Source of the DNA: Strigamia acuminata
Lineage: Eukaryota
Direction: 5' to 3'
Assembly: GCA_949358305.1 (NCBI GenBank)
Contig: OX442314.1
Location: 2,232,001 to 2,296,000, forward strand
Length of the DNA stretch: 64,000 bases
Part shown: in pieces, positions 12,457 through 33,651 of the stretch
Layout: every line of letters starts with the position of its first letter
Numbering within the stretch: the stretch's first letter is position 1
Program-made: the position numbers and the translations under genes
The notes under the pieces: generated by a model
Told to the model about the DNA's origin: nothing
The model's input: the letters and a program-made list of their open reading frames with translations, nothing else
Database searches by the model: none

Positions 12457-12604
12457 CCCTCGGAGGCATTTGGGTAAAATGTGCCGTTCTGGTACAACCC
12501 GTACCCATGTGTATTGGGCCGCTTGTATTTTTTGATGTTGCAAAAAAGAAAATCGTAAATTTCGAACTCAAAAAAAAGTTTTTAATCAAAATAAATAAAT
12601 GCAC
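12457..12604 (+). mobile_element. Possible piggyBac-like element end, interrupted by the Gypsy insertion
   Basis: TTAA|CCCT terminus. Subterminal GTGTATTGGGCC recurs at 12510 and, across the Gypsy, at 26713. Confidence 0.4.
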
Positions 12605-13276
12605 TGTTACGAATCAACTTAGATGTTTAATTGATTTGATCTGAATTTACGCGCAAGGTGATGTTAGCGCAAATCAGCGGGCAAAGTTCGTAGATTTACT
12701 CTGTTTGTGCCATCGTCATATGCGGATATCGGACGGTGAATAAACCTAACTCGCTGTAACACACATTATTTATATTCGACGGGCTCAATCTCACGTTGTG
12801 GGTCTTTACGTTTAAAAAGAATGAGTATGCGCAGTGATATTCGTATGCGGGTGGGCATAGGATGTCACAGGCATGCGAAGGGATAAAAGGTGGGCAAAAA
12901 GAGGCGCTATTAAGTGTTAAATTAGAAGAGGCGCGTGTTAAAGCGCAAAATAAAGATTGACAAACTCAATTCAATCTAAGAGGTGTTAACTCGTTGAAAG
13001 AGGTATGAGAAGTGTGGATTATGGATAAAAGTAGCGACCAGGTAAACATGAGTCATGTGACCAGGTCGATTGGAGTGGGTGAGGGGGTGGAAGGTATAAA
13101 ATAAGGTTAATTGTTGGAAATAATAAGATGCGCGCAATGAGGCTGCGCATATATTTAGAGATGATTCATCAATGTTAGATGAAAAGAAAGATTGGGAAAA
13201 AATAAGAAAACTTAAGATTGGGTCAGTCTAAGTTAGAAATGAATAAAAAAGAAGGGTGGGTAACCTGCCCGTGACA
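12605..13276 (-). repeat. 3' LTR of Gypsy element
   Basis: Direct repeat of 25937-26608; preceded on the minus strand by the PPT. Confidence 0.97.
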
Positions 13277-13290
13277 TCCCTCCCCCCTTA
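13277..13290 (-). promoter_or_regulatory. Polypurine tract
   Basis: Minus strand TAAGGGGGGAGGGA abuts the 3' LTR. Confidence 0.9.
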
Positions 13291-15174
13291 GGCTTTTATT
13301 ATTCGAGATTTATCGAAGAGAATAAAAGGATAAGAGACAAGGAAAGTCATACAATAATAATGCGCTATGCGCAAAAACTATACAAATTCTCAAAAAATAA
13401 ATTAAATAAATTAAACAACAAAAAAGAATGATGCGCGCCTGCGCAAAGACTTAACAACTTTGTCAAAAATAATGCACGTGGTGCAAAAACTTAACAACTT
13501 TGTCAAAATAATAAACAAAAGTTAAACAATACCAAATTAAATATCAAAAATCAATTAGATTATTAGAGACAGAGAATTAATAAATCACCATGGCTTTTGA
13601 AAATAAATTTAAACTAAGATTTTTGTAAAGTCACAATGGTAAATTTTAAATCATTCTACTCGAAATCACAAGACGAACAGGGACGACACAAGGAGGGCGA
13701 ACACTAAACCTAAAGGGGCCGACGATACCTAGGACGGACGAGAGTCTATACACTTTACCCAAACAATTTATAAAATAAAAATTTTAAACACTTTTACTTT
13801 TTTGTATAAACAAACTTCTGCTTTCTGTATAAAAATCATCGAATAAACAATTTTAAATTAAACAAAAATAAAGAGCCGACACATGAGAATTATCAAGAAT
13901 CAGGTTGGGATTTATTAATATCAAATTGGGTATTTATGTTATGGTAGGATGCGCGTAATTGCGCAAAACAAATACAAAATAAAGGTAAGGTACAAAATTA
14001 TGCAACCTGCATAAGGTAAGTATGATTTCAGATTAATTAGGAACTTTTAAATGGATGCGCGAACTTTGCGCAAGGATAATTTAGGTTATTAATTCTATGA
14101 ATGAAATGGAAAATAGAAACATATAAAATATTATAAAACATAACAAATACCCGCGCGCACAATACTACTCGTATTGCCACGGAATTAAATATGTTGATCA
14201 GAAGATATCACAAAATTAAATGAAGGGTCAAAAAAGTATCACAATAATCTTGATTAAATGCTAAATAATTAAAGAAAAATATTCATTAAATAAATTTAAA
14301 CATTGAATACTAACTTGGATCATTCCAGAATAATTGCGCTAAAATAAAGGTTAACTGAAATCAAATGAAATTAAATTCAAAATTAAATAGAATTAAATTC
14401 CTAATCTTTAGGACGATTGTTATAATTAAATGAAGGTAATTCTGGAATGATTATAGCACAAAAAAAATATCAAAATCATTAAACTAGAATAAATATTTCA
14501 ATAATATGACTAGAAAATTATCGAAATCATAATTGCACTTAAATAAAATATAATTGTAGTACTAAAAATCTAATTGTCCGATTCTAAAGCACTAAAAACG
14601 TAAAAATAATTAAATAAAATATAAATTATCAGTGAGGATTATCACAATAGAAAACTTGCGCAAAAATAATAACATTTATGATGAAACACTAATAATAATT
14701 ATTTGTTCTTCAAATCGACACATTACCGCTGCCCAAGCTCGTTCCATCAAGTCCTCCAACTCGAGAGATGTTTTACGGAGCGCCTCATCAATGGAATCGC
14801 ATGGCGGAACGGAAAAATGATGAAGATTTAAAGATGATAAAGTTTTGTGGATACCATGTAGATATTGGAATGCAGGCCGGCCCAAACTCAACGCACAAAT
14901 GCGGAGATGTTTTATTAGGGCATTTACCAGAGATCCACGATCTGGCGGCGCATTTTGGACACAATTAGAGATGAAAATATGATGAAAACACAAAATAATG
15001 ATGAATGGTAGGTTGAAGTGCGCACAAAGTCTTCGCAAATCACCAGGATCCTCGTATCAAGTCCTTCAACTCAACGCCGAAGCGGAGGAATTTTACGAAA
15101 CGCCCATTGATGTGATCTCCTGACTTCAATTTGCAAAAAACTTGCGCACACAAAGTCACGTTTAGGATTGTTGT

Positions 15175-17448
15175 TCACTCGAATTCCAAGGTTTGACGAT
15201 GTTGAGGATCTCGGAAATAGATTAGCATATTAAATGCCACTTCTACCACAACACGTCGCGCATCTTGGAATGAACGTGCGCCCTGCCGATTTATCTCGAA
15301 AAGACAGTGAGCCAAAAAATATTCTCCATACCTCCGGTAGAGAAGATGCAACAATGGATCAGCCTCCGAACGAAGCATATGCAAGTCCGCAATGGCTAAA
15401 GATCGGAGAAGCTGTCGCTGAGCCCGAATCGACATATCAAATTGGAGACATCCTCGTTCTCCCTCAGCAAAGTTACAACGAATCGTGGTGGGAGGCATCA
15501 AGCTTGGAAGAAGTTCCAAAGTTATGAATGGTTGGGTTGCATCCCACTCACCTCGTCTTGTGCGTGGGGCAGGAGGCAGGAACACGTATCGATAAACAGT
15601 CGAACACCGTATTTCGCGCAATTCGGTTAAACGGGTCCGCTCTCGATTTCGTCTGAATTCCTCCTCACTAGCCTCCTCCACGGCTCGTCTATCTGCCCAA
15701 TGTCGCTCGCCGAGTCGTTCTATCTCCATCTCATATCTTCGCATATATTCCAGATTTCGTCGCTCGTCGCCTCCCCTTCTATCTACGTGATGTCGGTCGG
15801 CGAGTTGTTTCCTCTCCATTTCATACCTTCTTCGGTATTCCGGATTTTGTCGTTCGTCGCCTCCCTCACGTTGCTCACGTCGCCTTAGAACCTGGTGAAG
15901 CACTTGGGAGACCTCCTCATGCATTACCCATATTAATAACTCCAGCGCATTTACGCGGTCGTAAAGGTCACATTGACTCAAGCGATGCTGAATCTGGTTG
16001 GACATGGTACGTATGCGTAGAAGCATTTCGTTAAATACTTCTTGAAAATCGGCTTGTAGGATATTAAAATCACGGTCCATCATAAAATTTATCAAAGTTA
16101 TCCAACCTCGACGCTCCATATAGAATCTGGATGGTGAGGAATGCACATCTTGCGCATATACATTTACCTCATATCGGTTCAATAATTCGTAAATAACTTC
16201 AAACGTATGCACCGGTTTTGTGCTAATTCCAGACCTGTCTGTGAATAAATCACAATGAGTAGCTGACGTAGTTGTTGATGTACCATCGCCCAGCTGGGGT
16301 TGCGCTGATTCTAAATGCGACCCTGTCAAGTATAGTCGATCAGAAATAGTTACTGTGCTGTTAGGGGGTATAGTTGCGCTGGTGTTTCCCGGGGGTGCAT
16401 TTGGTACAACTCGAAAATGAGATATAAGGACAGGAATTTTGGATTTTTGCGAAGTCTCACGAGGTACAATCTTTACTGTTGCTCGCCTACTCAGTTCACC
16501 TGAGACTGGTCTTCTGGTTGGGGATTGTGGCAAATTGACTGTACGCGGATCCCTTGCTTTCTTCTCAGGTCCTTGCGCATTTATAACTTGATCAGGAGGT
16601 GTCTCGATGATTACCTCATTGATTGATCCTAATAATGGCGGAGTAGTACTCAACTCGGATCCACAGTCTCGCACTGGCGGCGTGCTGGCCCGTTCCCGCT
16701 CAATCTCCTCGTTTTCCTGTTCTATCCTTCCGTCTGATACTGCACTGTCGCATTCACAACATAAATTCAAAGTCAAATCCGGGGATGCAGGTGTCAGGCT
16801 AGGTTGCGCTTCAAACCGCGACGAGGCGCTTGCAAATAACGCATCATCGTCACCACTGCTCCAGCTATCATCAGATTCGACTGGCAAATCCGACAAATGC
16901 GCAACAGCCCGCGCAATAGCCTCTTGAACCTGGTGTACATTACCATCGAGGGTTTCCTGAAGAGATGAAATAACTTCTCGTCCCATTATTGCACGCGTCG
17001 ACGACTGCTCACGATGTAATGGGTCCTCAGCCGGTGAATCAAGAAGTTGGGCGATGTTGGTACCAGGGTAAATCCATTGTCGAAGATTAATATGACTTGT
17101 CTGCGCCAATCGTCGCGCACGCTGCCAATACCAGCGGTGTACCGTCTCAAATCGCAGAATTGAAGCCGGACTTCCGTTGAGCGACCTAAACGGCGGAAAT
17201 GTAACGCCGCCAATATTTATGTTGTCTTGCCTGCGTCGACGTAACACCCATCCAAAAATCTGTCTCATCCAAACCGCGAATAAATCCCTCGGCAAGTCGC
17301 CATTCCCGTTGCACGCTCGACAGGTGAGAGCGGCTCGCGGCGGGTCCTCCTCCATACCATGGCCTGAGCAGACCGGGCATATCTCGTGGCTCGGAAAACC
17401 CGTACCGAATGCTTCTACAAAAGGTTCCTCGTCCCGATTGGAAGCCAT
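15175..17448 (-). CDS. Accessory ORF3 of the Gypsy element, unknown function (probable start MASNRDEE at 17448; frame open from 17517)
   Basis: Long uninterrupted ORF inside the LTRs on the pol strand. Contains CPVCSGHG/CRACNGNG; no signal peptide or transmembrane segment seen. Confidence 0.85.
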   Translation of the reverse strand: MASNRDEEPFVEAFGTGFPSHEICPVCSGHGMEEDPPRAALTCRACNGNGDLPRDLFAVWMRQIFGWVLRRRRQDNINIGGVTFPPFRSLNGSPASILRFETVHRWYWQRARRLAQTSHINLRQWIYPGTNIAQLLDSPAEDPLHREQSSTRAIMGREVISSLQETLDGNVHQVQEAIARAVAHLSDLPVESDDSWSSGDDDALFASASSRFEAQPSLTPASPDLTLNLCCECDSAVSDGRIEQENEEIERERASTPPVRDCGSELSTTPPLLGSINEVIIETPPDQVINAQGPEKKARDPRTVNLPQSPTRRPVSGELSRRATVKIVPRETSQKSKIPVLISHFRVVPNAPPGNTSATIPPNSTVTISDRLYLTGSHLESAQPQLGDGTSTTTSATHCDLFTDRSGISTKPVHTFEVIYELLNRYEVNVYAQDVHSSPSRFYMERRGWITLINFMMDRDFNILQADFQEVFNEMLLRIRTMSNQIQHRLSQCDLYDRVNALELLIWVMHEEVSQVLHQVLRRREQREGGDERQNPEYRRRYEMERKQLADRHHVDRRGGDERRNLEYMRRYEMEIERLGERHWADRRAVEEASEEEFRRNRERTRLTELREIRCSTVYRYVFLPPAPRTRRGEWDATQPFITLELLPSLMPPTTIRCNFAEGERGCLQFDMSIRAQRQLLRSLAIADLHMLRSEADPLLHLLYRRYGEYFLAHCLFEINRQGARSFQDARRVVVEVAFNMLIYFRDPQHRQTLEFE

Positions 17449-18258
17449 GTTGGTTTCAATATTCGTTGGGAATATAATGCGCCTAAGTTGGTGGAGGTAA
17501 TGCTTATATAAATACACAGAACAAATAATACGTTTGACAAACGATACTCACAATTACGACGCGCAACAACACGAACGCGCACAGAACGAAACAAACAACG
17601 AAGACTAAAGAATATTCCCCGGAATGTAACGAGTCATAAAACTTTGCTTCGAGAAGCTTCGATGAACGATTGAAAACTCGCACATGTAATAAAGTCGGGT
17701 TCGAGGTTAAACACTAACTAATTGCAATTGAAGGGCGACATTCAGTGTTGGAATTCGGAAGTTAGCGAAGGTTGTCTTCGCTCAAAACTCTTGTTTTAAA
17801 GTGATTAAATAAGGATGGTGAGATAAACAAGTAATAATTCAGAACACAGAATATTAATTTAAATAAAGTGCGCATAAATTATATTGATTGAATAATTTAA
17901 ATGAATTGTGGAAATAGCCACGTGCTATTGTTTAGAGGTTAATTGGCATTGCGCACTCTGGTGACGGACATAGTCCCTGATTGAAATGGACTTAGCCATT
18001 TTCGAGTGACCGAATATGAACATAAAATACATAACACAAAACATTAAATATAAAATATAAAGAAAACATAAAATAACATAAAACATAAAAATTTAGGATG
18101 AATAAATTTAAAATAAAGGGAAAAATAGTTTTTAAACAAAATAGGTAGTAAAGATAGATTTACACCGGATTACACTTGGTTTTTTTTTTTTTTTTTTTTG
18201 TTGTTTCGTTTGTGTTTTCCCTTTTTTTTTTTTATTTAGCTTAAAAAATAGAAGAAAA

Positions 18259-21200
18259 TTACTTAAATGAAAGAAAATAGGCAGAAAAAATATCTAAAGT
18301 GTTGACAGCAAAAATTTCAACATGTTTATCAATAATTTCAACGTCTTTTAAAGTTAAAAAGTTGGCCTCGGCAAAAAACCAATGTCGCAATTCCACGACA
18401 TTATAAGGCTGGGTTTTTTGGCCGTTTTCATCCATTAGGATTACTGTATTGGGGCCCACCAATCTGTGTATAATATATACACCTTCAGTCCGTTGGCGTA
18501 AACCTGCTGCGAATTGTTTATCGGCAGATGAAGGTTGCCGATTGCGCAAAGTTACCCAGTCGCCAGGACGGAAGTCATGGGGGCGCCGTTTTAAATCGAA
18601 CCATTTTTTGTGTCGAATTTGGGACTCGCGCAAGTTGTTAATCGCGCTTTCTCGCATTCTACGCATATGTTCGTGCAAGTTTTCAGCTTCCACGGGCGGC
18701 AACGGTTCTCCGTCATCCGTGTCGCTATCCAGGTCGCCCGGAAATCGAGCTTCCTGGCCTGTTACCATTTTAAAGGGTGAATACTTTAAAGAAATTTGAT
18801 ACGCTGAATTAATCGCGAGCACGAAATAGCCAATGTTGACGTCCCATCTAGTATGGTCATCATCAATATATGCTAATATACAGTTCTTTAATGATTGGTT
18901 AAGCCTTTCCGCAATATTACCTTGCGGGTGGTATGCGGCGGTATATCTATTTATTGCGCCAAGTTGCTGGATTTGGCTACGAAATTCTGGTGAGCGAAAA
19001 GCAGGCGCATTATCGCTGATAATTATTTTGGGAAAACCCCATCTTTTGCAGAATTTCTGAATTTGTTTCACCGTAGTGGCTATATTTGAGTTTTCGGTTA
19101 GACGTACGTCTAACCATCGGCTAGCAGAGTCGACCATCACAAAGGCATAGCAATGTCCCTCTGTGGATCGAGGTTTCTTGCCGTAATAGTCGATGTAGAT
19201 AGCGGAGAAAAGACGGCGCGATCTGGACATTATCATTTTTCCATATGGGAGCCTGTTAAGGGGTTTAGCTCTTTGACACGCTTCGCAAACCTGTATCCAT
19301 GTTCGAATATCTTCGCGCATTTTTGGCCAAAATACGCGCGATTTAATGCGATGGAGTGTTCGTTCTTGCCCCATATGTCCAACTACGGGAGGATAGTGCA
19401 TTGCGCGGAAATATCTTTCTCTGAGTTCAAATGGGAGATATATTTGGCGCCTCTTTCTAATTTCATTAATATGGACAGGAGGGAAGCGACATAACATCTC
19501 TTTATACATGCCGAAATCTTGCGCGTCAGCCACAATTTTGGCAGCCTCATCTGGATCAAGTGGTAACATTTGGGCAGTTAAATAAAATATCAACTCACGC
19601 GACCAGGGATCCTGTCTTTGCGCCGCAATGATTTCAGCAGCAGTAGGCAACAGCTCGAACGGAGGATGTTCGATTGGTGGATCGTGCTCCAATTCGGCTT
19701 GCTTCTCTGCTTCAGTCCTCGAATCTTCAATTACTGTCCTTTCCCGTCGCGGACGCAATCTCGATGGAGTTCTTCGCGCTGATGTTGGGGGCGCATAATA
19801 ATTCCTCGTTGGTGGCGACATGTCACGAATGGGTCCAAAACTGTCTTCAGATGATGTAGAGTCAGAATCCGGGTCCGAAGTATATCCCTCTGGCCTCTGC
19901 TGTCCTGATGGTCCCGCCGCATCGTCATACATCACTGGTTCAGAATGTTGACGCGGAGAAATAATAGGAAAATCAGTGATAGGAATTGAAGGAGTTGGGG
20001 AAGGAGTTGGTAAATTTGGAATTTCAGGAGAAGGTTTAGTAGTAGGCCTTCGGTGGCTATCAGGTTGAATTATTGGTGCGGGGACTCCAGTGATTCGACG
20101 GAAATTTCGTCGTATTTTATCCACCAAAGTTCCAGGTGTCGGCAATTGTGATGGTGCCGAAGCAGTCTTTTTTCTAAAACTAGACGGATTTATTGGCGCA
20201 GGAATTCTGGTTGGAATAATTGCCGAAGGAGGAATGGAACTAGGAATAGGAGTGGATATTGGAGTTGCAGGAGGGGTAGGAATAGGTAAGGGTGGTGGAA
20301 TTAAAACTGATTTAGATTTGGGTTTCACCACATGGGAAGGAATAGCGGATTTACGTCGCACTGCCTTCAACTTTCCTACTTGCTGTGATTTCAATAACTT
20401 TGGAAATGTCCACTTTTTAATAGTTCCCGCATACCTGGGTGGTAGCCATGGTGGTGTTTTAGGAATCAAAGATGGATCCTTTAATCTAGCCCGAGTTCGT
20501 GTGGCTATTGCTCGTTTAGCATGAGGAGATAAAATTGGTACAATATCAATTTTACGTGGTCTTCCTCGTTTCTTTATCAGAATTGGGATTAAAGAGCGCT
20601 GTCGGCGGGTTCGTAAAGGCACTGAAACACGAACTGGTGATAAATTAGGAGTTTTTACTTGTGAGGTTGGTTGCGCAACTGGAACTGATGCAACCGGAGG
20701 GATTGTAACCGGCGGTGCCCTCGTTGGAGGAGTAGCTACGCCAGTAGAAGATGGAATTTGCGCACCTGAAGTCGGCGCATTTCCAGTCACTTTCTCTTTA
20801 CCAGTAGGTCGAGGAATAAGAGATTTTTTCTTATTTTTCTTCTTAGTCGGTAAAGAAGCTGCAATGAGAGGCACTTTTTTGAATTTAGATTTAAATAACT
20901 TTCGAAACTGCAAATTAATGTCTTTTGGCAATTCCTTGATGATATTGAGTGCCGGCCACTCGTTGCAATCATCAAAATAGGCAAGGTAGCACGCCTCGTC
21001 GACCTCCGGGCTATCATCCTCATCGTCGACTTCAGGTGGGTCGACAGGAGCTCGACTCAGTGCATCCGCTACCTTATTTTTGCATCCTGAACAGTGCAAA
21101 AATGTGAATTTATAATCACTCAACGATAATACCCAACGGGCCAAACGTCCAGTTGGTTCCCTTTGCTGAAATAACCACTTAAGAGATTGATGGTCGCTCT

Positions 21201-23865
21201 CGAGGTAGAATGGCATCATCTCGAGGTATGCACGAAAGCGTTTGACACCCCAAACCGCGGCCAAACATTCGATTTCGGTTACTTTATAGTTCTTTTCAGC
21301 GCTGTTTAATGCGCGAGAGGCAAATGCGATTGGAATTCTCACACCTTCATCGTTAAGTTGCATTAAAGCAGCACCTAATCCAGAATAACTAGCATCGGTC
21401 TGCAGTATAAATGGTTTTTTCCAACTGGGAAAACGTCTTTTCAGTGTTGGTATCGCAATCTGGTCTTTCAGATATTCGAACGCTGATTGCTGCGCATCTG
21501 TCCAAATCCAAGTTGCGTCCTTTTTAAGCAATGGTCGGAAAACTTCGCTAATTTTGGAAAAATTTGCAATGAATGATTGGTAATAACCTACCATGCCTTT
21601 AAATCGTTGTAATTCGCGCAAATTGGTTGGCGCGGGATAATTTTGAATAGCAACCACTTTCTTTGGATTTGGTGTAATCTGGCCAGATTCCACTATGTGT
21701 CCCAAAACCTCGAGTCTTTTTTGACAAAGCTCAGTTTTGTTGGCGTTCATGGTGAATCCAGCGTTGAACAATTCCTCTAAAACGAGGCGCAAATGTTGCA
21801 CGTGTTCCTCGAAAGTTCGGCTAAAAATAATCACGTCATCAATATACACAAATACAAATTTGTAAAGATACTTTGCAAGAGTCTTATTCATCGCTCGTTG
21901 GAGGGTAGCGGGTCCGTTGATAGGTCCGAAAGGCATGCGCACATATTCGAATAAACCTCGATGTGTTATAAAAGCTAAATACCGTTCGTCACCTTTGCGC
22001 ACGCCGATCTGATGGAAAGCTTCGCGTCCGTCGATTATCGAAAACCAATGCGCACCTCCCAAATATGCAAAGATGTTATCAATGTCCGGAAGGGGGTAAA
22101 CGTCCGGAATTGTTTGCGCATTAATGGGGCGAAAATCCATAGCAGTTCTCCATTCACCTGTCTTCTTGGGTACGACGACTGGAGCAACAGCGCAATCACT
22201 TTGGGATCGCCGAATAATACCTTGCTGCAGCTTTTTGTCGATATATTTATCAATTATCGCCTTTTTCGCAGGGTTCACCGGGCGCACAGGGACATGAATT
22301 GGACGAAAATCCGGTTTCAGGTTCACCTCGTACTCGGTGTTATTACATAAACCAATTTCTTCGCGAAAGATTTGCGAAATGGGCTGCAATGTTTTGATTA
22401 ATAGTTTTATCTGTGGCACTGTCAATTGGTTCCACAACTGGTGGTAAATCCAATCTAAATCGGTCGGATCTCCACTAGGTTGGTACTGCAAAAAATTAAT
22501 GTCATTAATGTTCATTTTAGAGTTATTCCCACCATTGTCAGGTTGCGCAATCGAAAAGATGTTGATTTTCGACTCCTTCTTGGCATTGATGTCTTTAGCA
22601 CGTTGCGCAACGAGTTGTTTGGCAATTGGACGAATAACATTGATTTTTCGTCGTAAACGTCGTAATCGTCGGAACTGACTCAAAGTTAATTTACGTAAAA
22701 TTGTCTTTTTTAAATTGGAGGAAATTTTAGAAGTTTCTTTCCTCTTTGGGGACCAAATATTCGACCATTTGCGTTGCGCACGATGTCGAACTTGTTTAAC
22801 TCGATACTGCGCATCGTCATGTGGATACTCGAATATTTCTTGTTGCAAGGGTCTATGCGCCAGGAGGAGGCAGTTAATTTCACTCACCGGATCCGGTTTC
22901 CTTAGTATTTTCGTCGGAACGATCTCACTAATGGCCGCCGGTGGGTTGGATGGATCCTGCGTTTCTTCCGGCGCAAATGGCAAAACCAGAATTGACTCTG
23001 ACTTTTTTGCTTCTTCATAAGTCATGAATTTGCGAATCTCATTTGAGCCCACCATGCTCCACTGTTGTCTCGCATGGTCGATGTCGATTCCGGCCGCTGT
23101 GCAGAAATCACGTCCAAGGAGCATATCCATTTTGGCATCGGGTAAAACCATGCAAATGAATTTTATTATGCCTATTGGGGCGCGCAAAGCGAGCTGCATC
23201 GATTTGGTGGAATCCACTATGTCACCAGACGCGACCTGCACCCGCTCGTGGAGATTCACAAAGTCCAAACCCATTTTTTCGTGTAGTTGTTGGAACACGT
23301 CCTCACTCATTACACACGTTTGTGCGCCTGAGTCTAGAAGCGCAGTACAAGCTACATTAGCCCAGGAAATCTTTACGCAAGGTGCTTTCTTGCACAAACG
23401 ATCCCCGCGCGTTATCTCAATGATGGGTTCTTGAGTTTCTTTAAGTTCCTCTGGCGTTAACATTACGAAAGATACCTTCATAGGAGAGATCACTTCCTTT
23501 GGAGCCTCAGTCGTTGTTGCACTGGAAGTAGACTTAATTATTGGTAAAGTTTTAGTAATTTTACTCACTATTGTCACTTTCGGGTTTTTCTTCGAAATTA
23601 CAGGTTGCAAATCTGTTAATTTCGGCAATTCGTCCTTTACAGCTTCAGGAACGGCAGTCTGCAGATCTGACGCCTTTGTAGCTGAGGTGATGATGGAAGA
23701 TGATGAAGAAATAACACTACTTACAGGTTTATACTCTGAAAGAGTAATAACAGTAGGAGATGTTGTTAAATTAACCTGTGAAGGATCGTCCTCTTTCAAG
23801 TTAATTAAAGGTGAAGCGCGTCGTTTGGATTTCAGACGTTTTGCGCGAAGGGCCGGTCGACTCAT
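18259..23865 (-). CDS. pol: Gypsy Pol polyprotein (PR-RT-RNaseH-insert-IN), 1868 aa
   Basis: LLDSGA protease, YVRMPFG/YIDD RT, QTDAS..EIECLA..SDHQSL RNase H, H..GH..CEAC zinc finger, integrase IDYYG/SDNA/AERLN. Confidence 0.97.
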   Translation of the reverse strand: MSRPALRAKRLKSKRRASPLINLKEDDPSQVNLTTSPTVITLSEYKPVSSVISSSSSIITSATKASDLQTAVPEAVKDELPKLTDLQPVISKKNPKVTIVSKITKTLPIIKSTSSATTTEAPKEVISPMKVSFVMLTPEELKETQEPIIEITRGDRLCKKAPCVKISWANVACTALLDSGAQTCVMSEDVFQQLHEKMGLDFVNLHERVQVASGDIVDSTKSMQLALRAPIGIIKFICMVLPDAKMDMLLGRDFCTAAGIDIDHARQQWSMVGSNEIRKFMTYEEAKKSESILVLPFAPEETQDPSNPPAAISEIVPTKILRKPDPVSEINCLLLAHRPLQQEIFEYPHDDAQYRVKQVRHRAQRKWSNIWSPKRKETSKISSNLKKTILRKLTLSQFRRLRRLRRKINVIRPIAKQLVAQRAKDINAKKESKINIFSIAQPDNGGNNSKMNINDINFLQYQPSGDPTDLDWIYHQLWNQLTVPQIKLLIKTLQPISQIFREEIGLCNNTEYEVNLKPDFRPIHVPVRPVNPAKKAIIDKYIDKKLQQGIIRRSQSDCAVAPVVVPKKTGEWRTAMDFRPINAQTIPDVYPLPDIDNIFAYLGGAHWFSIIDGREAFHQIGVRKGDERYLAFITHRGLFEYVRMPFGPINGPATLQRAMNKTLAKYLYKFVFVYIDDVIIFSRTFEEHVQHLRLVLEELFNAGFTMNANKTELCQKRLEVLGHIVESGQITPNPKKVVAIQNYPAPTNLRELQRFKGMVGYYQSFIANFSKISEVFRPLLKKDATWIWTDAQQSAFEYLKDQIAIPTLKRRFPSWKKPFILQTDASYSGLGAALMQLNDEGVRIPIAFASRALNSAEKNYKVTEIECLAAVWGVKRFRAYLEMMPFYLESDHQSLKWLFQQREPTGRLARWVLSLSDYKFTFLHCSGCKNKVADALSRAPVDPPEVDDEDDSPEVDEACYLAYFDDCNEWPALNIIKELPKDINLQFRKLFKSKFKKVPLIAASLPTKKKNKKKSLIPRPTGKEKVTGNAPTSGAQIPSSTGVATPPTRAPPVTIPPVASVPVAQPTSQVKTPNLSPVRVSVPLRTRRQRSLIPILIKKRGRPRKIDIVPILSPHAKRAIATRTRARLKDPSLIPKTPPWLPPRYAGTIKKWTFPKLLKSQQVGKLKAVRRKSAIPSHVVKPKSKSVLIPPPLPIPTPPATPISTPIPSSIPPSAIIPTRIPAPINPSSFRKKTASAPSQLPTPGTLVDKIRRNFRRITGVPAPIIQPDSHRRPTTKPSPEIPNLPTPSPTPSIPITDFPIISPRQHSEPVMYDDAAGPSGQQRPEGYTSDPDSDSTSSEDSFGPIRDMSPPTRNYYAPPTSARRTPSRLRPRRERTVIEDSRTEAEKQAELEHDPPIEHPPFELLPTAAEIIAAQRQDPWSRELIFYLTAQMLPLDPDEAAKIVADAQDFGMYKEMLCRFPPVHINEIRKRRQIYLPFELRERYFRAMHYPPVVGHMGQERTLHRIKSRVFWPKMREDIRTWIQVCEACQRAKPLNRLPYGKMIMSRSRRLFSAIYIDYYGKKPRSTEGHCYAFVMVDSASRWLDVRLTENSNIATTVKQIQKFCKRWGFPKIIISDNAPAFRSPEFRSQIQQLGAINRYTAAYHPQGNIAERLNQSLKNCILAYIDDDHTRWDVNIGYFVLAINSAYQISLKYSPFKMVTGQEARFPGDLDSDTDDGEPLPPVEAENLHEHMRRMRESAINNLRESQIRHKKWFDLKRRPHDFRPGDWVTLRNRQPSSADKQFAAGLRQRTEGVYIIHRLVGPNTVILMDENGQKTQPYNVVELRHWFFAEANFLTLKDVEIIDKHVEIFAVNTLDIFSAYFLSFK

Positions 23866-25832
23866 TTGCGGCCTGGTTCCACCGGCTTCCCGAACTTCAG
23901 GCCTTCGGAGTTTTCCGGTCTCCTAAATGGCTGGTAACATATGGGGCACAACGGATGCCAAGTTGCTGTATCTACCAAATACCACCAATCCTTCGGTGTT
24001 TTCCTCCAGGCTGTGCCTTTCTCAGGACATTTGACAGTTAATGGTGGTTTTGGCGCTGGTGGAAACGTGACAATTGACGTAGAGCACACATGGTCCTTTG
24101 GGACGTCTGCTGGAGGTGTCAGAGTAGCTAAATTTATTTTAATTGTTGCCTTCTGAGCCGCCTCGGCGACTGTGCTCTTCTTAATTTCAGGTTCAGCATC
24201 CGTGTCGCTGCTACTACTACTCGTATCGGGTTCCTGCGCAGGTGGAGATTGTTCTGGTCTCGCCTGCACTGCAGCTAACTCGATTAAGAATTGTTTTCGA
24301 TACCTCGCAAAACGTTTGACGTCCTGGGACACGAGAGATTTGACATCATCGTCTCCTTTGGACTTCTCCGCAGCCTTGAGCACTGTGGGGCGTTGCGCAT
24401 CACGCAGAGAGGGCATTCGTTGATCAGCCATACCCAGATCTTTGTATTCGTCTGCTCGAATGGTGTCCAGCTGTAGACGATTGTCGATGTCATTACCTCT
24501 TTGGATCGCCTCGTCCAGCGAGTTTACGTTCCATGCGCGCAAGAGATGAACAACTTCGGTTTGCATCATGTTCTGAGCTTTCTCCCATTGGAGCTCTGGG
24601 TCGGTATATCCTGCAACCTGAAGATAATATACAATCTCACTTAAAAATGACATCGTAGACTCTCCATTTCGTTGCTTTCGCTTGGATAGCTTCACATTGG
24701 CCGCTGCCGAATTCATGGCGAAAGCTCGTCGAAATAATATCTCAAAGTCCTCCCATGTTTTTGGTTTTGGTTTTAGTGATAACCACCATCGCTGCGCTCT
24801 TCCACGCGTTGCTTGAATGACAAATACTTTTAAATATTCATCCACCGGGGCCTGCATAGAATACATGTGCGCGTACAAATGCGCAAGAAAAAGATTAATG
24901 TAATCAAGATCGGCTTTATCTGGATCAAACAAAGGTGGTTTTCCAGGCTTGAAACAATTTTTATCTTTACTTGCGTGTTGCGCTCTTACTGACGGCAGTG
25001 ACAACTTTGCCTTGGTGTCGGATCTATCCCGAGGATATCCCATCTTGGAGTATAGCATCGAGCTCATTAAATCTCGATTTGCTCGTGTTGAATGGTCCAA
25101 ATGAGCAGATTCCTGTGATGGAGCCTGGGTATAGATCGTTGCCATCGTCGGCATTGGCGGCGTGGTTGTTGTGTAAACAATTTGCGCAGCCTGCGCGGAC
25201 ATTTTCGTCTGCTGGCCTCGATGTTCAACTTCCCGATGCTGGTGCGGACATGCTGTGGGAAGTCCCAAATCATATGGTGCCGAGGTGCCTTTAACTCTTA
25301 TGGAGCCATGCGAGGATCCACCGTCTAGAGACCGTGCGGTCCCTGTTCGTAGAGAGCGAGGGCCTTGTTGGAATATTTCGCGAATCTCATTTACTAGACC
25401 TCGTGTTTGAGCATAGTATTGGTTGCGCAAGTCGGACATCAGCAAACCTTCCGTATTTAATGTGACGGGGTCTACTAATGCTCTAGGCTGAGTCGAATCG
25501 AAAAAAGATGGCGCCGCCAAAAAGTTAGCGGGTGTTGACGTGGCAAAATTTACTTGAGGTTGCGCTCGTGAATTTGCAACAGCCATTGTCATGATATGAT
25601 TTGATGGGGCTGGCTGTTGTTGCGCAATACTCACAAGCGTTTCCTGTTGTTCGATACGACTTCTTCGTAATTGGTCGTGTTGCTGCCACTCTCGAAATTC
25701 CCTTTCCTCTTCCCGGCGAACACCACTCCTCCGTTCGGACTGTTGCCATTCCTGCTCCATTTCTAACTCACTGAAATCAAATGGATCGCGCGTGACGGGA
25801 CGAATTCCGTCACCTCCCAACTGTCTCGACAT
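23862..25832 (-). CDS. gag: Gypsy Gag, 656 aa
   Basis: First ORF after the PBS; retrotransposon capsid-like GRAQRWW..TWEDFEILFRRAF..KRKQRNGES motif. Confidence 0.9.
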   Translation of the reverse strand: MSRQLGGDGIRPVTRDPFDFSELEMEQEWQQSERRSGVRREEEREFREWQQHDQLRRSRIEQQETLVSIAQQQPAPSNHIMTMAVANSRAQPQVNFATSTPANFLAAPSFFDSTQPRALVDPVTLNTEGLLMSDLRNQYYAQTRGLVNEIREIFQQGPRSLRTGTARSLDGGSSHGSIRVKGTSAPYDLGLPTACPHQHREVEHRGQQTKMSAQAAQIVYTTTTPPMPTMATIYTQAPSQESAHLDHSTRANRDLMSSMLYSKMGYPRDRSDTKAKLSLPSVRAQHASKDKNCFKPGKPPLFDPDKADLDYINLFLAHLYAHMYSMQAPVDEYLKVFVIQATRGRAQRWWLSLKPKPKTWEDFEILFRRAFAMNSAAANVKLSKRKQRNGESTMSFLSEIVYYLQVAGYTDPELQWEKAQNMMQTEVVHLLRAWNVNSLDEAIQRGNDIDNRLQLDTIRADEYKDLGMADQRMPSLRDAQRPTVLKAAEKSKGDDDVKSLVSQDVKRFARYRKQFLIELAAVQARPEQSPPAQEPDTSSSSSDTDAEPEIKKSTVAEAAQKATIKINLATLTPPADVPKDHVCSTSIVTFPPAPKPPLTVKCPEKGTAWRKTPKDWWYLVDTATWHPLCPICYQPFRRPENSEGLKFGKPVEPGRK

Positions 25833-25912
25833 GATGAAGAAAATGTGAAATGATTAAATAAATAACTCAAAAAACTAACCTTTTCGCGCGTTTAAGCCTT
25901 ATAGGTGAGAGC

Positions 25913-25932
25913 GAATCCTGTCAGGCTCGCCA
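25913..25932 (-). promoter_or_regulatory. Primer binding site, tRNA-Arg type
   Basis: Minus strand TGGCGAGCCTGACAGGATTC resembles the complement of the tRNA-Arg(ACG) 3' end; 4 nt from the 5' LTR. Confidence 0.75.
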
Positions 25933-25936
25933 TGTT

Positions 25937-26608
25937 TGTTACGAATCAACTTAGATGTTTAATTGATTTGATCTGAATTTACGCGCAAGGTGATGTTAGC
26001 GCAAATCAGCGGGCAAAGTTCGTAGATTTACTCTGTTTGTGCCATCGTCATATGCGGATATCGGACGGTGAATAAACCTAACTCGCTGTAACACACATTA
26101 TTTATATTCGACGGGCTCAATCTCACGTTGTGGGTCTTTACGTTTAAAAAGAATGAGTATGCGCAGTGATATTCGTATGCGGGTGGGCATAGGATGTCAC
26201 AGGCATGCGAAGGGATAAAAGGTGGGCAAAAAGAGGCGCTATTAAGTGTTAAATTAGAAGAGGCGCGTGTTAAAGCGCAAAATAAAGATTGACAAACTCA
26301 ATTCAATCTAAGAGGTGTTAACTCGTTGAAAGAGGTATGAGAAGTGTGGATTATGGATAAAAGTAGCGACCAGGTAAACATGAGTCATGTGACCAGGTCG
26401 ATTGGAGTGGGTGAGGGGGTGGAAGGTATAAAATAAGGTTAATTGTTGGAAATAATAAGATGCGCGCAATGAGGCTGCGCATATATTTAGAGATGATTCA
26501 TCAATGTTAGATGAAAAGAAAGATTGGGAAAAAATAAGAAAACTTAAGATTGGGTCAGTCTAAGTTAGAAATGAATAAAAAAGAAGGGTGGGTAACCTGC
26601 CCGTGACA
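25937..26608 (-). repeat. 5' LTR of Gypsy element
   Basis: Direct repeat of 12605-13276; adjacent to the PBS. Confidence 0.97.
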
Positions 26609-26864
26609 GCACCTTGTAGAACAAACATTGGGCTTTATTTAAAAAAAAAATAAAATTTTAACTTAAATGGGCCAAAAGTTATGGCTATTTGAATTTGCGT
26701 CACTTGGCACAAGTGTATTGGGCCACCACGCTAATTGCCTCAAGTGAGTTGGGCCGGCAGAAAAAGCTTAGCACCACATCCGAAAAATCACACAAAAAAC
26801 TGGTTTCTTCAGAAAATCATTGTTTATTGGAACAATACTTTACAATATTTTGTTGAATAACCAA

Positions 26865-27103
26865 AATTTTGTATGTGATTGTGCAGGCCAAGTCAAAACC
26901 TAAATGTGATGGGTTTGGAAAACTGAGCAAATGACTTGACTTTATGTTTAGAATCATTTTCCTGCTGAAATATCCATGTCAAAGGCAGTTTATCATCTCC
27001 AAATTGAAGCATAACAATCCTTCAATACTTTTTCATAAGTATATTGGTCCATGATATTCTTAATTTAATGTTGTGGACCGATACACATACAGGAAACCAT
27101 CTC
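26865..27103 (-). mobile_element. Tc1/mariner transposase remnant
   Basis: Frameshifted translation gives IGP.H.IKNIMDQYTYEKVLKD / WIFQQENDSKH / LTWPAQS, typical Tc1 catalytic-domain motifs. Confidence 0.75.
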
Positions 27104-30100
27104 TGTGGAAACTGGAGTTCCTGTAGAAGTCAACATTTAGGGGGAATTGTAGGTGGCGCCATGTTTGGCCACCAGAGGGTCACTTCGGTGACCCACTCTG
27201 TACTGGGATGATTTATTGTTAGAATTAAGGGTAGGGAATAGAACATTACCTATTTCCGTTTTTGAATAAATTAATTACTGTTCAAATGTAAATCCGTGTG
27301 TACGCATGCTTTATTTGTCATCCACAAGATTCAACCAAATTCAACAACCATCAAGTATCCAAAGTAACTTTTATTTGTTCAACATAACATTTTGAGTTGC
27401 ATCCGCAACATTGGTGCCGAAAACCCGAGACCTTTTAAAAGAAAAACCAAGGAAAATCGATCGCAATGACGGATTTGGAGAAGAATCGAAGACAAAGGGA
27501 AGCCGCGAGGACTAACATTCGAAATATTTTCAACACATTGAAACATGAAATAAAACAAGATCCGGTAAATGAAGTAAAACTTTTATGCATACAAGCACAG
27601 TTACTTTTAAAGGGACCAAAGATCGAGAAGTTGGACATTCTGGTGGCCGACGCCATCACCGACATTGACGAAGTCACGGACGATACGATTGGAGCCGAGG
27701 AGTTCCAAGACGAATTGGTAGCAGCAAAAGTCACGCTGGAAATGGCTTTGAAAGAAATCACACAACTGAAACCGCAAGTACTAAATCCAAACTTACCACT
27801 TATTAATCCCGTTATCGTTAATACGCCGATCGGAGGCCAACAATACACAAGCATGAAATTGCCGAAGCTGGAAATTGCCAAATTCAGGGGAACACCCGAA
27901 ACGTGGACTCAATTCTGGGGAGACTTCCAGTTAAGCGTGCATAACAACACTTCGCTTCCCAAAACGGCGAAGTTCGTGTATTTGCGATCGTTGGTCGAAG
28001 GATTGGCCGCCAACGCGATAAGTGGACTCACGGTAACGAATGAAAATTACGACAGCGCGGTCGGTTTGCTGGCAAGTAGATTTGGTAAACCGGACTTGAT
28101 AATAAATGCACACATGCAAAAATTCCTCGAGGTGAAGCCCGTGAAAAATGCAGAAGATGTTGTTGCACTTCGAGAACTTTATGATTATTGCGACCTTCAC
28201 ATAACAAGTTTAGGAAATTTAGGAGTGGATGCATCAACGTTTGGGGCACTCTTGGGCCCAATTTTAACTCGTGCGACGCCCGATTCGATGCAACACAACT
28301 TTTCCAGATCCAGAGGCGAATTACCATGGTCGATGACAGATTTTCTGAAGTTTTTCCGATTCGAAATCGAGATGCGCGAGAGGACGAAGGCGATGAGTGA
28401 TAAAAACAACTTGATCGAAAAGAAAGAAACTACTACGAAAAAACAAGAGGAAGTAACTAAGAAAATAAATACAAAGAATAATCCACTTGGTTCCGCCGCA
28501 GCTTTGACAACAATCACGTACAAATGCACATTTTGTCAAAAAGAAGAGCATACGAGCCCAAACTGTCCGCTGACTCTTGCCGAACGTAAAGCTGCGTGCA
28601 TGAAGTTTCGAAGATGCTATCGTTGTCTCAAGGAGGGACACATCGCCTCCAGATGCAAAACTCGATTTCGATGCAAGAACTGCGAAAAGAATCACCACAC
28701 TTACCTGTGCGACGCTGAAGAGAAGAAACCAATCGAGACACTGACCTCATCCGCCGTTTTGGAGCAGGAACAACCAGTATCCGTGATGTTTTTGCAAGTA
28801 CTCGTTGTAGATGCGTGCGGACAATCGAAAAAGCGTAAAGTACAGTGTTTTTTGGATGGCGGGTCGCAGAAGACATTTATTACGGAGAAGTTGTCTCGAG
28901 AACTGAACTTGGAACGAGTTGGCGAACAAGATATTGCATTGTTAACCTTTGGAGCAACCGAGCCAACAATTGCGAAGAGAAATCGAGTGAAACTGTTAAT
29001 GAATAATTGCGACAATGTTGCCTTTAATTTAGAAGTCGAAGCACTAGAAACTCCGTGGATCACACCAGCGCTGAAGGGACAGACTGACCAGAGAATACTG
29101 AGCGAACTGAAGAAACACAACATCAAATTGGCAAGCAACGGAAATGTTCAAATGGACGATGGAGTTTCGATTTTGATCGGAGTGGACAATTTTTGGAAAG
29201 TGACCACCGGAAAACAACACCGACTTGGAGAAAATTTAATGGCAATAGAAACGATTTTCGGTTGGACTTTGCACGGCTCATCTGGGGAGAATAAAGAGAC
29301 AGTATCGGCGCTCGTACGGGTAAATAAAATCCTTGTAATTGACAATACTAATGAGCTTTTGGAGAAATTTTGGAGTTTGGAGGCAATCGGGATTAAACAC
29401 GAGACCGTGGAACGAAACGAGGACGAAGAGCAAACATTGAAACGATTCAAGGAAAGCATCGAATGGGTACAAGACCACTACGAAGTCGAACTGCCGTGGA
29501 AACTGAACGCCAAAGAACTGGACGACAACCGACAACCAGCATTAAAAAGATTTTGGAGTTTGGTCAATCGATTTAGAAAAAATCCGAAGCTGTATTTACA
29601 ATACAAAGAAGTGATCACGGAGCAACTTAGAACTGGAATTGTCGAAGAAGTACCACAGGAAACTGGAGAAAATAACCCAATTTATTATATTCCACACAGA
29701 CCCGTGATCGACGAGACAAGAGCAACGACCAAACTTAGAATCGTGTACGACGCTTCCTCACACGCGAAAGGATGCTTCTCATTGAACGACTGTTTATACA
29801 AGGGATCGAACTTATTGCCAAAATTACTAAACGTGATTCTCAAATTTAGAACAGGAATCATCGCAGCCATCGCGGATATTGAAAAGGCCTTCCATCGCAT
29901 CCATTTGAAGAAAAAAGAACGCGATGTCATGAGATTTCTTTGGCTCGAGGAAAACTGGAATGGAACCGAACCAGCGAAGATAAGGGAACTCAGACAAACA
30001 CGAGTGCCGTTTGGTACATCCCCCAGCCCTTTTCTCCTCTCGGCCACCATCGATCATCATGTCGAAGACTTCAAGGAAGAATATCCGGAAACATGCAAGC

Positions 30101-32985: not shown

Positions 32986-33077
32986 ATCTCCAAGCCATTT
33001 TACTATTGGGATGGCTTGGGGATGGTTTCCTGTATGTGTATCGGTCCACAACATTAAATTAAGAGTTTCATGGACCA

Positions 33078-33651
33078 ATGAAGAGAAGGAGCGTGAGTTT
33101 TGAGGTCGGCGAGAAAGTTACCATCAGAGCGCATAAGCTGCCAGATCCAAGTTTATTTCAAATGAAGGCCTTTTTGCCCTTGACGGAGGGGGTATTCGAG
33201 ATCAAGGAACTTTACGGCGATAACATTCTGCTGTTGGAGGACGTAGAGGGCAAATCCGAGCCGTTCTTGACCAACGTAGATAGAGTTCAACTCTGGCAGG
33301 ATAGCCCAGATCAAGAGTTAGAGAGTCATTCAACGCCCTCAGTTTGAATTTATTGTGACCCGTTTCTCTCTTAATTTTAGCTTGTTTTTGTTAGCGTTCT
33401 AGTTGCTCTCGGTTTACTGTTCGGTTTGGGGAGGGGAGAGGAGTGTGTTGATTTTGGGGGGGGGGATAATGTAATAATGGGAGTTTTGCCTGATGCGAGT
33501 GCGGGTTGTTGTGAGAGAGAGCGCCATGTTGGCATTCCTACGTGTAATTTGGATTAGATTTACATTTGCTTCTTATGGATTAAAAGTCTGTTGTTCACTT
33601 TGATTTATTCAGTGTTTACTGGATTGGCGCCCAAACCCACGCAGAATCACA
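33078..33651 (+). mobile_element. 5'-truncated Gypsy remnant: integrase C-terminus, PPT and 3' LTR (33470-33651)
   Basis: KRRSVSFEVGEKVTIR..TEGVFEI..NVDRVQLW aligns with the end of the Pol above. G-tract at 33455-33465 is followed by a TG...CA LTR like 12011-12182. Confidence 0.85.

What the first reader, a model, noticed from the sequence alone, without database searches (positions are those of the whole stretch)
12605..26608. Candidate novel system: a 'complex' 14-kb Gypsy with an accessory protein, cytoskeleton-targeting motifs and structured 3' UTR
Seen together in one intact element: an enlarged Pol with an SxIP-rich disordered insert, a non-env ORF3 that also has an SxIP motif, and a ~1.9-kb 3' UTR with repeated RNA stems. 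Inference: the element may encode its own RNA export and microtubule-trafficking kit (for example to reach the oocyte or germline nucleus) instead of an envelope. I cannot confirm novelty without a database search.
Basis: inference. Interest (0 to 1): 0.8.

Follow-up and report, generated by a model that had tools for sequence, protein, structure and literature searches.

The report
Retrotransposon stamped with one DNA motif
An intact, envelope-less Gypsy retrotransposon, likely from a centipede, carries an orphan extra gene, a long insert in Pol with a cluster of motifs predicted to bind the microtubule-tip protein EB1, and a five-letter word repeated ten times more densely than in the surrounding DNA, which is likely a docking site for a DNA-binding protein rather than an RNA export signal.

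Summary
The element is real and intact: identical 672-bp LTRs, 4-bp target duplication, open gag, pol and a 757-aa non-env ORF3 with no credible homologue. The ~420-aa Pol insert is real (RNase H-to-integrase link 535 aa; median 90 in 117 relatives) and holds 5 SxIP against 0.7 expected, plus an AT-hook. ORF3's single SxIP is chance-level. The 3' UTR is not more structured than control DNA. Its 'stems' are paired copies of TGCGC, a word that covers the whole element: 85 sites in 13.3 kb against 31 in the other 50 kb, also inside coding sequence under codon shuffling, strand-symmetric, with no G-U variants. That favours a double-stranded DNA site; TGCGC is the NRF1/Erect-wing half-site, and ORF3 is the rival reader (VANC-like). 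In public contigs the insert is covered as deeply as RT, ORF3 3- to 8-fold less, so the parts are not a fixed kit. The closest protein is from the centipede Strigamia maritima. The RNA-export reading is unsupported; EB1 docking by the insert is plausible but untested. New variant of a known kind.

The parts
25937..26608 (-). 5' LTR, 672 bp
   Evidence: identical to 3' LTR over 672 nt
12605..13276 (-). 3' LTR, 672 bp
26609..26612 (-). target-site duplication GTGC (second copy 12601-12604)
   Evidence: empty-site joint 12600-26609 in 4 of 4 runs
25915..25932 (-). primer binding site, 4 nt after the LTR; tRNA-Arg-like (label recalled, not tested)
23862..25832 (-). gag, 656 aa; Retrotrans_gag E 2e-4 (below Pfam cut-off); no CCHC knuckle
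23910..23916 (-). predicted -1 frameshift heptamer in the gag-pol overlap, followed by stem-loops
   Evidence: frame offset and fold; slippery-site label recalled
18259..23922 (-). pol frame, 1887 aa: protease 185-279, RT 584-744, RNase H 807-937, integrase 1497-1684
19717..20967 (-). ~420-aa basic Pro/Ser/Thr-rich insert between RNase H and the pre-integrase mini domain, predicted disordered
20200..20823 (-). SxIP cluster: SLIP aa 1034, SLIP 1110, SLIP 1151, SAIP 1192, SSIP 1228, TRIP 1238
20551..20574 (-). AT-hook-like KKRGRPRK, pol aa 1117-1124 (label recalled)
17449..18258 (-). 810-nt AT-rich spacer between pol and ORF3
15175..17448 (-). ORF3, 757 aa orphan, no transmembrane segment; helical middle, Glu/Arg repeat, helical C-terminus
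17296..17379 (-). two CxxCxGxG motifs at the ORF3 N-terminus, predicted zinc site
   Evidence: Anti-TRAP E 0.002, DnaJ_CXXCXGXG E 0.007, both below cut-off
16432..16443 (-). single SKIP in ORF3 (chance-level)
13277..15174 (-). 1898-nt 3' non-coding region ending in the polypurine tract; paired TGCGC...GCGCA at 14056-14072, 13950-13965, 13432-13445, 13361-13373
12605..26608 (.). element-wide array of TGCGC/GCGCA sites: 85 sites counting one LTR, 32 of them the palindrome TGCGCA

Best explanation
This is an intact, recently inserted, envelope-less Ty3/Gypsy retrotransposon whose whole length is overprinted with the word TGCGC, likely a docking array on the double-stranded provirus for a dimeric DNA-binding protein, most likely the host NRF1/Erect-wing factor, which would help keep the element active in a genome that likely methylates its transposons. 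Shown: anatomy, insert, SxIP excess, motif excess, symmetry and oriented pairing. Inferred: (1) Gag-Pol is made by a -1 frameshift and copied in the usual way. (2) The insert likely stays as an N-terminal arm of integrase or is cut free; its basic clusters and AT-hook would bind DNA or drive nuclear import, and its SxIP cluster would dock the integration complex on EB1 at microtubule tips (about 45%). (3) ORF3 is likely a soluble, fast-changing accessory protein that many copies lack or carry in a very different form (about 65%); it is the rival reader of the motif. (4) The 3' UTR 'stems' are likely two half-sites facing each other, not an export element.
For: 85 sites in 13.3 kb against 31 in the other 50 kb, p 3e-33, 2 in the neighbouring 5.9-kb BEL element; density steps up and down at the element's ends. 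GCGC is the only enriched context of 16 NCGN (o/e 3.9; outside 1.09). With proteins and codon usage fixed, TTGCGC, TGCGCA and GCGCAA are the top three 6-mers (z 8.7, 7.9, 6.9; largest null z 5.8). Every variant matches its reverse complement in number (27/30, 15/15, 14/11, 8/7, 5/8) and G-U-tolerant forms are not enriched. T-GCGC-spacer-GCGC-A pairs with spacer 0-12: 10 against 3.3, p 0.001, opposite order 2; 9 of 10 gain no pair beyond 5 bp. NRF1's half-site is TGCGC, its dimer binds such pairs over a range of spacers, and it has sea-urchin and Drosophila homologues (PMC10810270, passages). Strigamia methylates silent transposons (PMC6673714, passages); the closest protein is from S. maritima (332 bits, next 108).
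Against: The full NRF1 consensus GCGCATGCGC occurs 0 times; pairs with spacer 0-7 are 4 against 2.0, p 0.15; the same paper has a section stating that an intact consensus is needed for activation. The base before TGCGC is more often T (0.49) than A (0.26). No binding, methylation or expression data. Strict Watson-Crick RNA pairing also gives strand symmetry, and 4 of 5 hairpins form in local folds with probability about 0.9 or more. The host is inferred from one protein.
Confidence: 0.38

Rival explanations
1. ORF3 itself reads the TGCGC array and lifts silencing from its own family in trans, as VANC proteins do for VANDAL transposons; copies without ORF3 would ride along.
For: Element-limited motif; soluble orphan ORF3 with a predicted zinc site; ORF3 contigs 12-16% diverged and low cover; VANC binds short family-specific motifs (PMC5735166, passages).
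Against: No similarity of ORF3 to any known DNA-binding protein; VANC motifs sit in non-coding tandem repeats whereas these are dispersed and in coding sequence; the word equals a known host half-site.
Confidence: 0.2
2. The word acts in RNA: self-complementary UGCGC/GCGCA pieces form short stems and intermolecular pairs that compact, dimerise or package a 13-kb genome, read by the atypical Gag C-terminus or by ORF3.
For: Oriented pairs 10 against 3.3; 4 of 5 UTR/U3 hairpins form locally; Gag has no CCHC knuckle.
Against: No G-U variants, exact strand symmetry; stems stop at 5 bp in 9 of 10; most of the 85 sites are unpaired locally (14 of 84 gaps are 4-20 nt); UTR folding is ordinary.
Confidence: 0.15
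3. One reading: ORF3 is a Rev-like RNA export factor, the UTR its response element, and both SxIP sets carry particles along microtubules to the germline nucleus as one inherited kit.
For: SxIP excess in Pol; ORF3 SKIP meets the context rule; contigs of one diverged class join the ORF3 3' part to UTR blocks (table 5).
Against: ORF3 SKIP is chance-level; UTR is not unusually structured; motif is not UTR-specific; ORF3 cover is 3- to 8-fold below pol.
Confidence: 0.12
4. No dedicated reader: the insert is an expanded low-complexity linker, the SxIP excess follows from its Ile-Pro bias, and the TGCGC excess comes from a methylation-linked or mutational bias.
For: This linker is already variable in the sister group (113-167 aa); the SxIP p-value weakens to 0.010 given IP counts; TGCGCA ranks 1 of 225 for maintenance methylation in mouse cells (10.64898/2026.04.09.717557, section 7).
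Against: That hierarchy is additive, but here TGCG followed by A, G or T is not enriched (0.9x) while TGCGC is 11x; other CpG contexts are not depleted; a relative about 19% diverged keeps the same 1663-nt RNase H-integrase gap.
Confidence: 0.15

Closest known systems
Ty3/Gypsy LTR retrotransposons with an RNase H + 'mini' domain bridge (PMC13524379, section 7)
   Same: LTRs, gag, PR-RT-RH-IN order; a conserved block before the integrase zinc finger where that paper places the mini domain
   Different: about 420 extra disordered residues in the bridge; no envelope; extra ORF3
Strigamia maritima T1IZH5 (P0121), a 291-aa pol fragment
   Same: 59% identity over 165 aa before and in the integrase zinc finger, near-identical RNase H end
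   Different: the protein record lacks the insert; whether its DNA has it could not be read
LTR elements with non-env ORF3 in bdelloid rotifers (PMC5408684, abstract) and MDG1-group sORF2 elements (10.1101/2025.03.14.642691, abstract)
   Same: accessory ORF in an envelope-less Gypsy element
   Different: those are GDSL esterases, DEDDy exonucleases or short transmembrane proteins; this ORF3 matches none and has no transmembrane segment
VANDAL/VANC anti-silencing system of Arabidopsis (PMC5735166)
   Same: family-specific short motif accumulated in a transposon that also encodes an extra protein
   Different: plant DNA transposon; motifs in non-coding tandem repeats; binding shown there, untested here; no homology
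NRF1/Erect-wing/P3A2 binding sites (PMC10810270)
   Same: TGCGC half-site; facing pairs with variable spacer
   Different: no full consensus here; mostly single sites, spread through coding sequence
SxIP-bearing parasite proteins: Theileria p104 (PMC3649978); predicted SxIP in betaretroviral integrases (PMC8303831)
   Same: SxIP in a basic Ser/Pro-rich disordered region
   Different: a cluster of 5-6 in a retrotransposon Pol insert; binding untested
CopiaMBD of Strigamia (PMC6673714)
   Same: centipede LTR element that has added a module bearing on chromatin to its polyprotein
   Different: Copia, a folded host-derived MBD; here a disordered motif array

Membership tests
Ty3/Gypsy LTR retrotransposon | Paired LTRs with TG..CA, target duplication, primer site, purine tract | tested here: met
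Ty3/Gypsy LTR retrotransposon | gag, then PR-RT-RH-IN order | tested here: met
   (gag match below Pfam cut-off)
Named Gypsy clade or Repbase/Dfam/GyDB family | RT tree with reference elements | not testable with these tools
   no such library; tree of 60 best hits puts the query on a long branch in a 19-member group (support 0.95) with Ornithodoros tick elements
Errantivirus (env-carrying) | ORF3 with signal peptide, transmembrane anchor, F- or gB-type fold | tested here: not met
   highest hydropathy 0.94; no family or homologue
MDG1-group sORF2 elements | short transmembrane ORF upstream of gag (position recalled) | tested here: not met
   leader is 104 nt; a 53-aa hydrophobic frame lies in the pol-ORF3 spacer, untested
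SxIP-type EB1 ligand | nine-residue rule: R/K in X1-X4, no D/E | tested here: met
   4 of 8 [ST]x[IL]P in Pol and 1 of 2 in ORF3 (rule, checked on the printed nine-mers)
SxIP-type EB1 ligand | basic, Ser/Pro-rich disordered setting | tested here: met
   net charge +52, Pro 18%, 16 S/T-P sites
SxIP-type EB1 ligand | binding to EB1 and plus-end tracking | not testable with these tools
   no EB1 sequence available in session
NRF1/Ewg target | TGCGC half-sites, facing pairs | tested here: met
NRF1/Ewg target | full consensus GCGCATGCGC | tested here: not met
   0 copies
NRF1/Ewg target | occupancy by the factor | not testable with these tools
   needs binding data
VANC-like anti-silencing system | family-specific motif enriched in the element | tested here: met
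   family specificity tested only against the rest of this window and loci L001-L006
VANC-like anti-silencing system | motifs in non-coding tandem repeats | tested here: not met
   dispersed, 3.7-10.4 per kb in all parts but the leader
VANC-like anti-silencing system | element-coded protein binds the motif and lowers methylation | not testable with these tools
   no binding or methylation data

The most novel reading that the evidence does not exclude
An animal LTR retrotransposon with its own lock and key: the orphan zinc-binding ORF3 recognises a motif written across the whole provirus, coding sequence included, to shield its family from methylation, while an EB1-tracking, AT-hook arm on integrase steers the integration complex along microtubules to chromosomes.
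Probability: 0.15. Interest if true: 0.88.

Novelty: new variant of a known kind. Interest (0 to 1): 0.6.

Why it matters
A tenfold excess of one short word through 13 kb, kept even in RT codons, means a reader or a process acts on the whole element. A cluster of EB1 motifs beside an AT-hook in Pol would be a direct, testable handle on how integration complexes reach chromosomes. Both can be tested with short fragments.

Tried and rejected
ORF3 homologues: none at E 0.01 among 7993 candidates of 416-1325 aa (shorter and longer proteins not searched there); 3 hits among 1.84 billion representatives, all weak matches summed over 5-14 stretches, 2 of 3 being fish Ig-repeat proteins, rejected (the third, 6222 aa, not examined further); no Atlas hit for the whole protein or residues 400-757; no PDB sequence match below E 0.25. 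Folds without alignment were poor (pLDDT 36 and 49) and Foldseek gave no match at E 0.001 in viral or PDB libraries; the wide structural search did not run. No whole genome is held. Viral contigs: no relative; metagenome loci L001-L006 are only 33-39% identical and hold 1 TGCGCA in 26 kb. No RNA holder listed. C/EBP reading (TTGCGCAA 9 against 0) rejected: its usual variants (recalled) are not enriched; metal-response reading rejected: TGCAC forms are not enriched. No 10-bp periodicity of sites. The stretch of P0121 at the insert position looks like an off-frame reading of a Pro/Thr/Ile-rich segment, but alignment to the window's three frames was not above shuffles. 0 of 39 listed copy differences fall in motif cores, where 1.4 are expected: no power. 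ORF3 differences 6 synonymous, 10 not, from 40 of 1248 rows shown: too few to call selection. What stands in place of ORF3 in most copies was not resolved. Five look-ups of earlier findings returned nothing. No complex prediction was sent.

Full report
Anatomy. The element lies on the minus strand at 12605-26608. Its LTRs are identical over 672 nt, begin TG and end CA, and are flanked by GTGC on both sides; a primer site starts 4 nt after the 5' LTR (tRNA-Arg-like, label recalled; the string was not found in the seven supplements of PMC13524379) and a purine tract precedes the 3' LTR. Three frames are open: gag (656 aa), pol (1887 aa from stop to stop, in the -1 frame, with a candidate slippery site) and ORF3 (757 aa). 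Pfam gives protease, RT, RNase H and integrase in Gypsy order. Identical LTRs mean a recent insertion. Three public runs from 2 studies hold it (one may be the source sample); their contigs cover all 30 bins and show many variant copies.

Relatives. The best RT/RNase H hits are at most 45% identical. A search of shorter proteins found one much closer record, Strigamia maritima T1IZH5 (332 bits, next 108; 59% over 165 aa), so the host is likely a centipede; this rests on one protein. A tree of the query and 60 hits puts it on a long branch in a 19-member group with tick elements (support 0.95); no named references were available.

The Pol insert. The RNase H-to-zinc-finger link is 535 aa against a median of 90 in 117 of 120 hits; only two are longer, both in very long proteins with repeated domains, and none has more than one S-x-I-P in the link. 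The insert sits before the conserved block that likely corresponds to the 'mini' domain of PMC13524379 (section 7 read). It is 18% Pro, net charge +52 over its first 345 residues, with 16 S/T-P sites and a disorder-type composition. It holds 5 S-x-I-P against 0.69 expected (p 0.0005); the largest count in any 250 aa of 198 relatives is 2. Ile-Pro is itself frequent (14), and given that, p is 0.010. Four Pol motifs meet the nine-residue rule quoted in PMC3649978 (passages). In one search the insert is covered as deeply as RT, and one 3830-nt contig 18-20% diverged in RNase H and integrase keeps the same 1663-nt gap between them although the gap is mostly under 80% alike: the insert is old in this family and its length is kept. 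Other copies show short insertions of 35-40 letters near 20690. EB1 docking is plausible, not shown. Searches for gypsy + retrotransposon + SxIP and for retrotransposon + EB1 + integrase + oocyte found only a motif prediction for betaretroviral integrases (PMC8303831, passages).

ORF3. No transmembrane segment, two CxxCxGxG motifs at the start, one SKIP at chance level, and no credible homologue or fold match. Summed contig depth over its interior is 4-6 thousand against 28-55 thousand over pol in X1, 1.2-2.2 against 5.6-12.1 thousand in X2, 0.3-0.6 against 1.2-3.2 thousand in X3; at listed variant sites the gap is about 3- to 5-fold (read by eye from table 3). The tool warns that this depth is no copy number, so it is a hint. 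ORF3 contigs 12-16% diverged exist, and joints of equal depth link the ORF3 3' part to UTR blocks in one diverged class. No joint that skips ORF3 is among the 15 of 67 shown. So ORF3 is either missing from many copies or diverges faster than pol; this was left open. Non-env ORF3s are known in rotifer LTR elements (PMC5408684, abstract) and MDG1-group elements (10.1101/2025.03.14.642691, abstract), but are different proteins.

The 3' UTR and the word. The UTR folds no better than controls and matches no Rfam family. Its hairpins are TGCGC-loop-GCGCA. That word covers the element: TGCGCA 34 times against 8 in the other 50 kb, TTGCGCAA 9 against 0; 85 sites against 31 (p 3e-33); 3.7-10.4 per kb in LTR, gag, pol, spacer, ORF3 and UTR alike. 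It survives codon shuffling as the top three 6-mers, above the null maximum, while the neighbouring BEL element has no 6-mer above its null. It is all-or-none: TGCGC 11x, TGCG plus another base 0.9x. It is strand-symmetric in every variant and G-U forms are not enriched. Facing pairs are in excess (10 against 3.3) and 9 of 10 stop at 5 bp. One of the few UTR blocks kept in the diverged class contains the word. This pattern fits a site on double-stranded DNA better than an RNA element. TGCGC is the half-site of NRF1, whose dimer binds facing pairs over a range of spacers at 2- to 14-fold lower affinity and which has invertebrate homologues (PMC10810270, abstract and passages). Against this, the full consensus is absent and that paper finds it needed for activation. 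Strigamia methylates silent transposons (PMC6673714, passages), which gives a shield a purpose; VANC proteins are the precedent for an element-coded reader (PMC5735166, passages). TGCGCA is also the best-maintained CpG context in mouse cells (10.64898/2026.04.09.717557, section 7; its supplements were not seen), but that effect is additive and this one is not. Searches for TGCGCA + transposon + motif (20 of 272 listed, titles and abstract starts only) and for LTR retrotransposon + GCGC + overrepresented (0) showed no report of such an array; Repbase, Dfam and GyDB could not be searched.

Verdict. A real, intact Gypsy with three unusual features: a family-specific SxIP/AT-hook insert, an orphan ORF3 and an element-wide DNA-like motif. 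Best reading: host NRF1/Ewg-type docking array, 0.38; ORF3 as reader 0.2; RNA pairing 0.15; no reader 0.15; export kit 0.12. New variant of a known kind, interest 0.6.

Noticed in passing
window 27103-33020: Intact BEL/Pao element 500 bp away: one 1758-aa frame (27439-32715), LTRs identical over the 300 nt shown, sitting between 59-nt inverted arms (27043-27101, 33021-33079) that look like the ends of an interrupted DNA element.
   Followed up: partly
window 14676-15174: GC-richer first part of the 3' region with a 126-aa frame and what look by eye like decayed repeats of one short coding unit; covered more deeply than ORF3, with indels near 14840 in other copies. Possibly the remnant of a fourth ORF.
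   Followed up: partly
window 17925-18086 (-): 53-aa frame in the spacer with a hydrophobic first half and basic tail; it arises from a T-rich repeat and may be chance.
   Followed up: no
window 22390-23865 (-): Pol is also long elsewhere: about 170 Ser/Thr/Lys-rich residues before the protease and a very basic stretch between protease and RT (marker distance 468 aa against median 341 in 73 relatives).
   Followed up: partly
window 23865-24110 (-): Gag ends in an atypical Cys/His cluster instead of a CCHC knuckle.
   Followed up: no
window 12400-12604 and 26609-26800: The element is inserted in a very high-copy repeat; the empty site is seen in 4 of 4 runs. The duplicated target GTGC is one letter from GCGC; target preference could not be tested.
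   Followed up: no
window 36938-39505 and 44443-47040: Two copies of a repeat about 7.5 kb apart, 86-96% alike in blocks.
   Followed up: no
P0019: An unrelated Gypsy protein among the hits runs from RT and integrase straight into a long C-terminal extension that looks env-like by eye.
   Followed up: no
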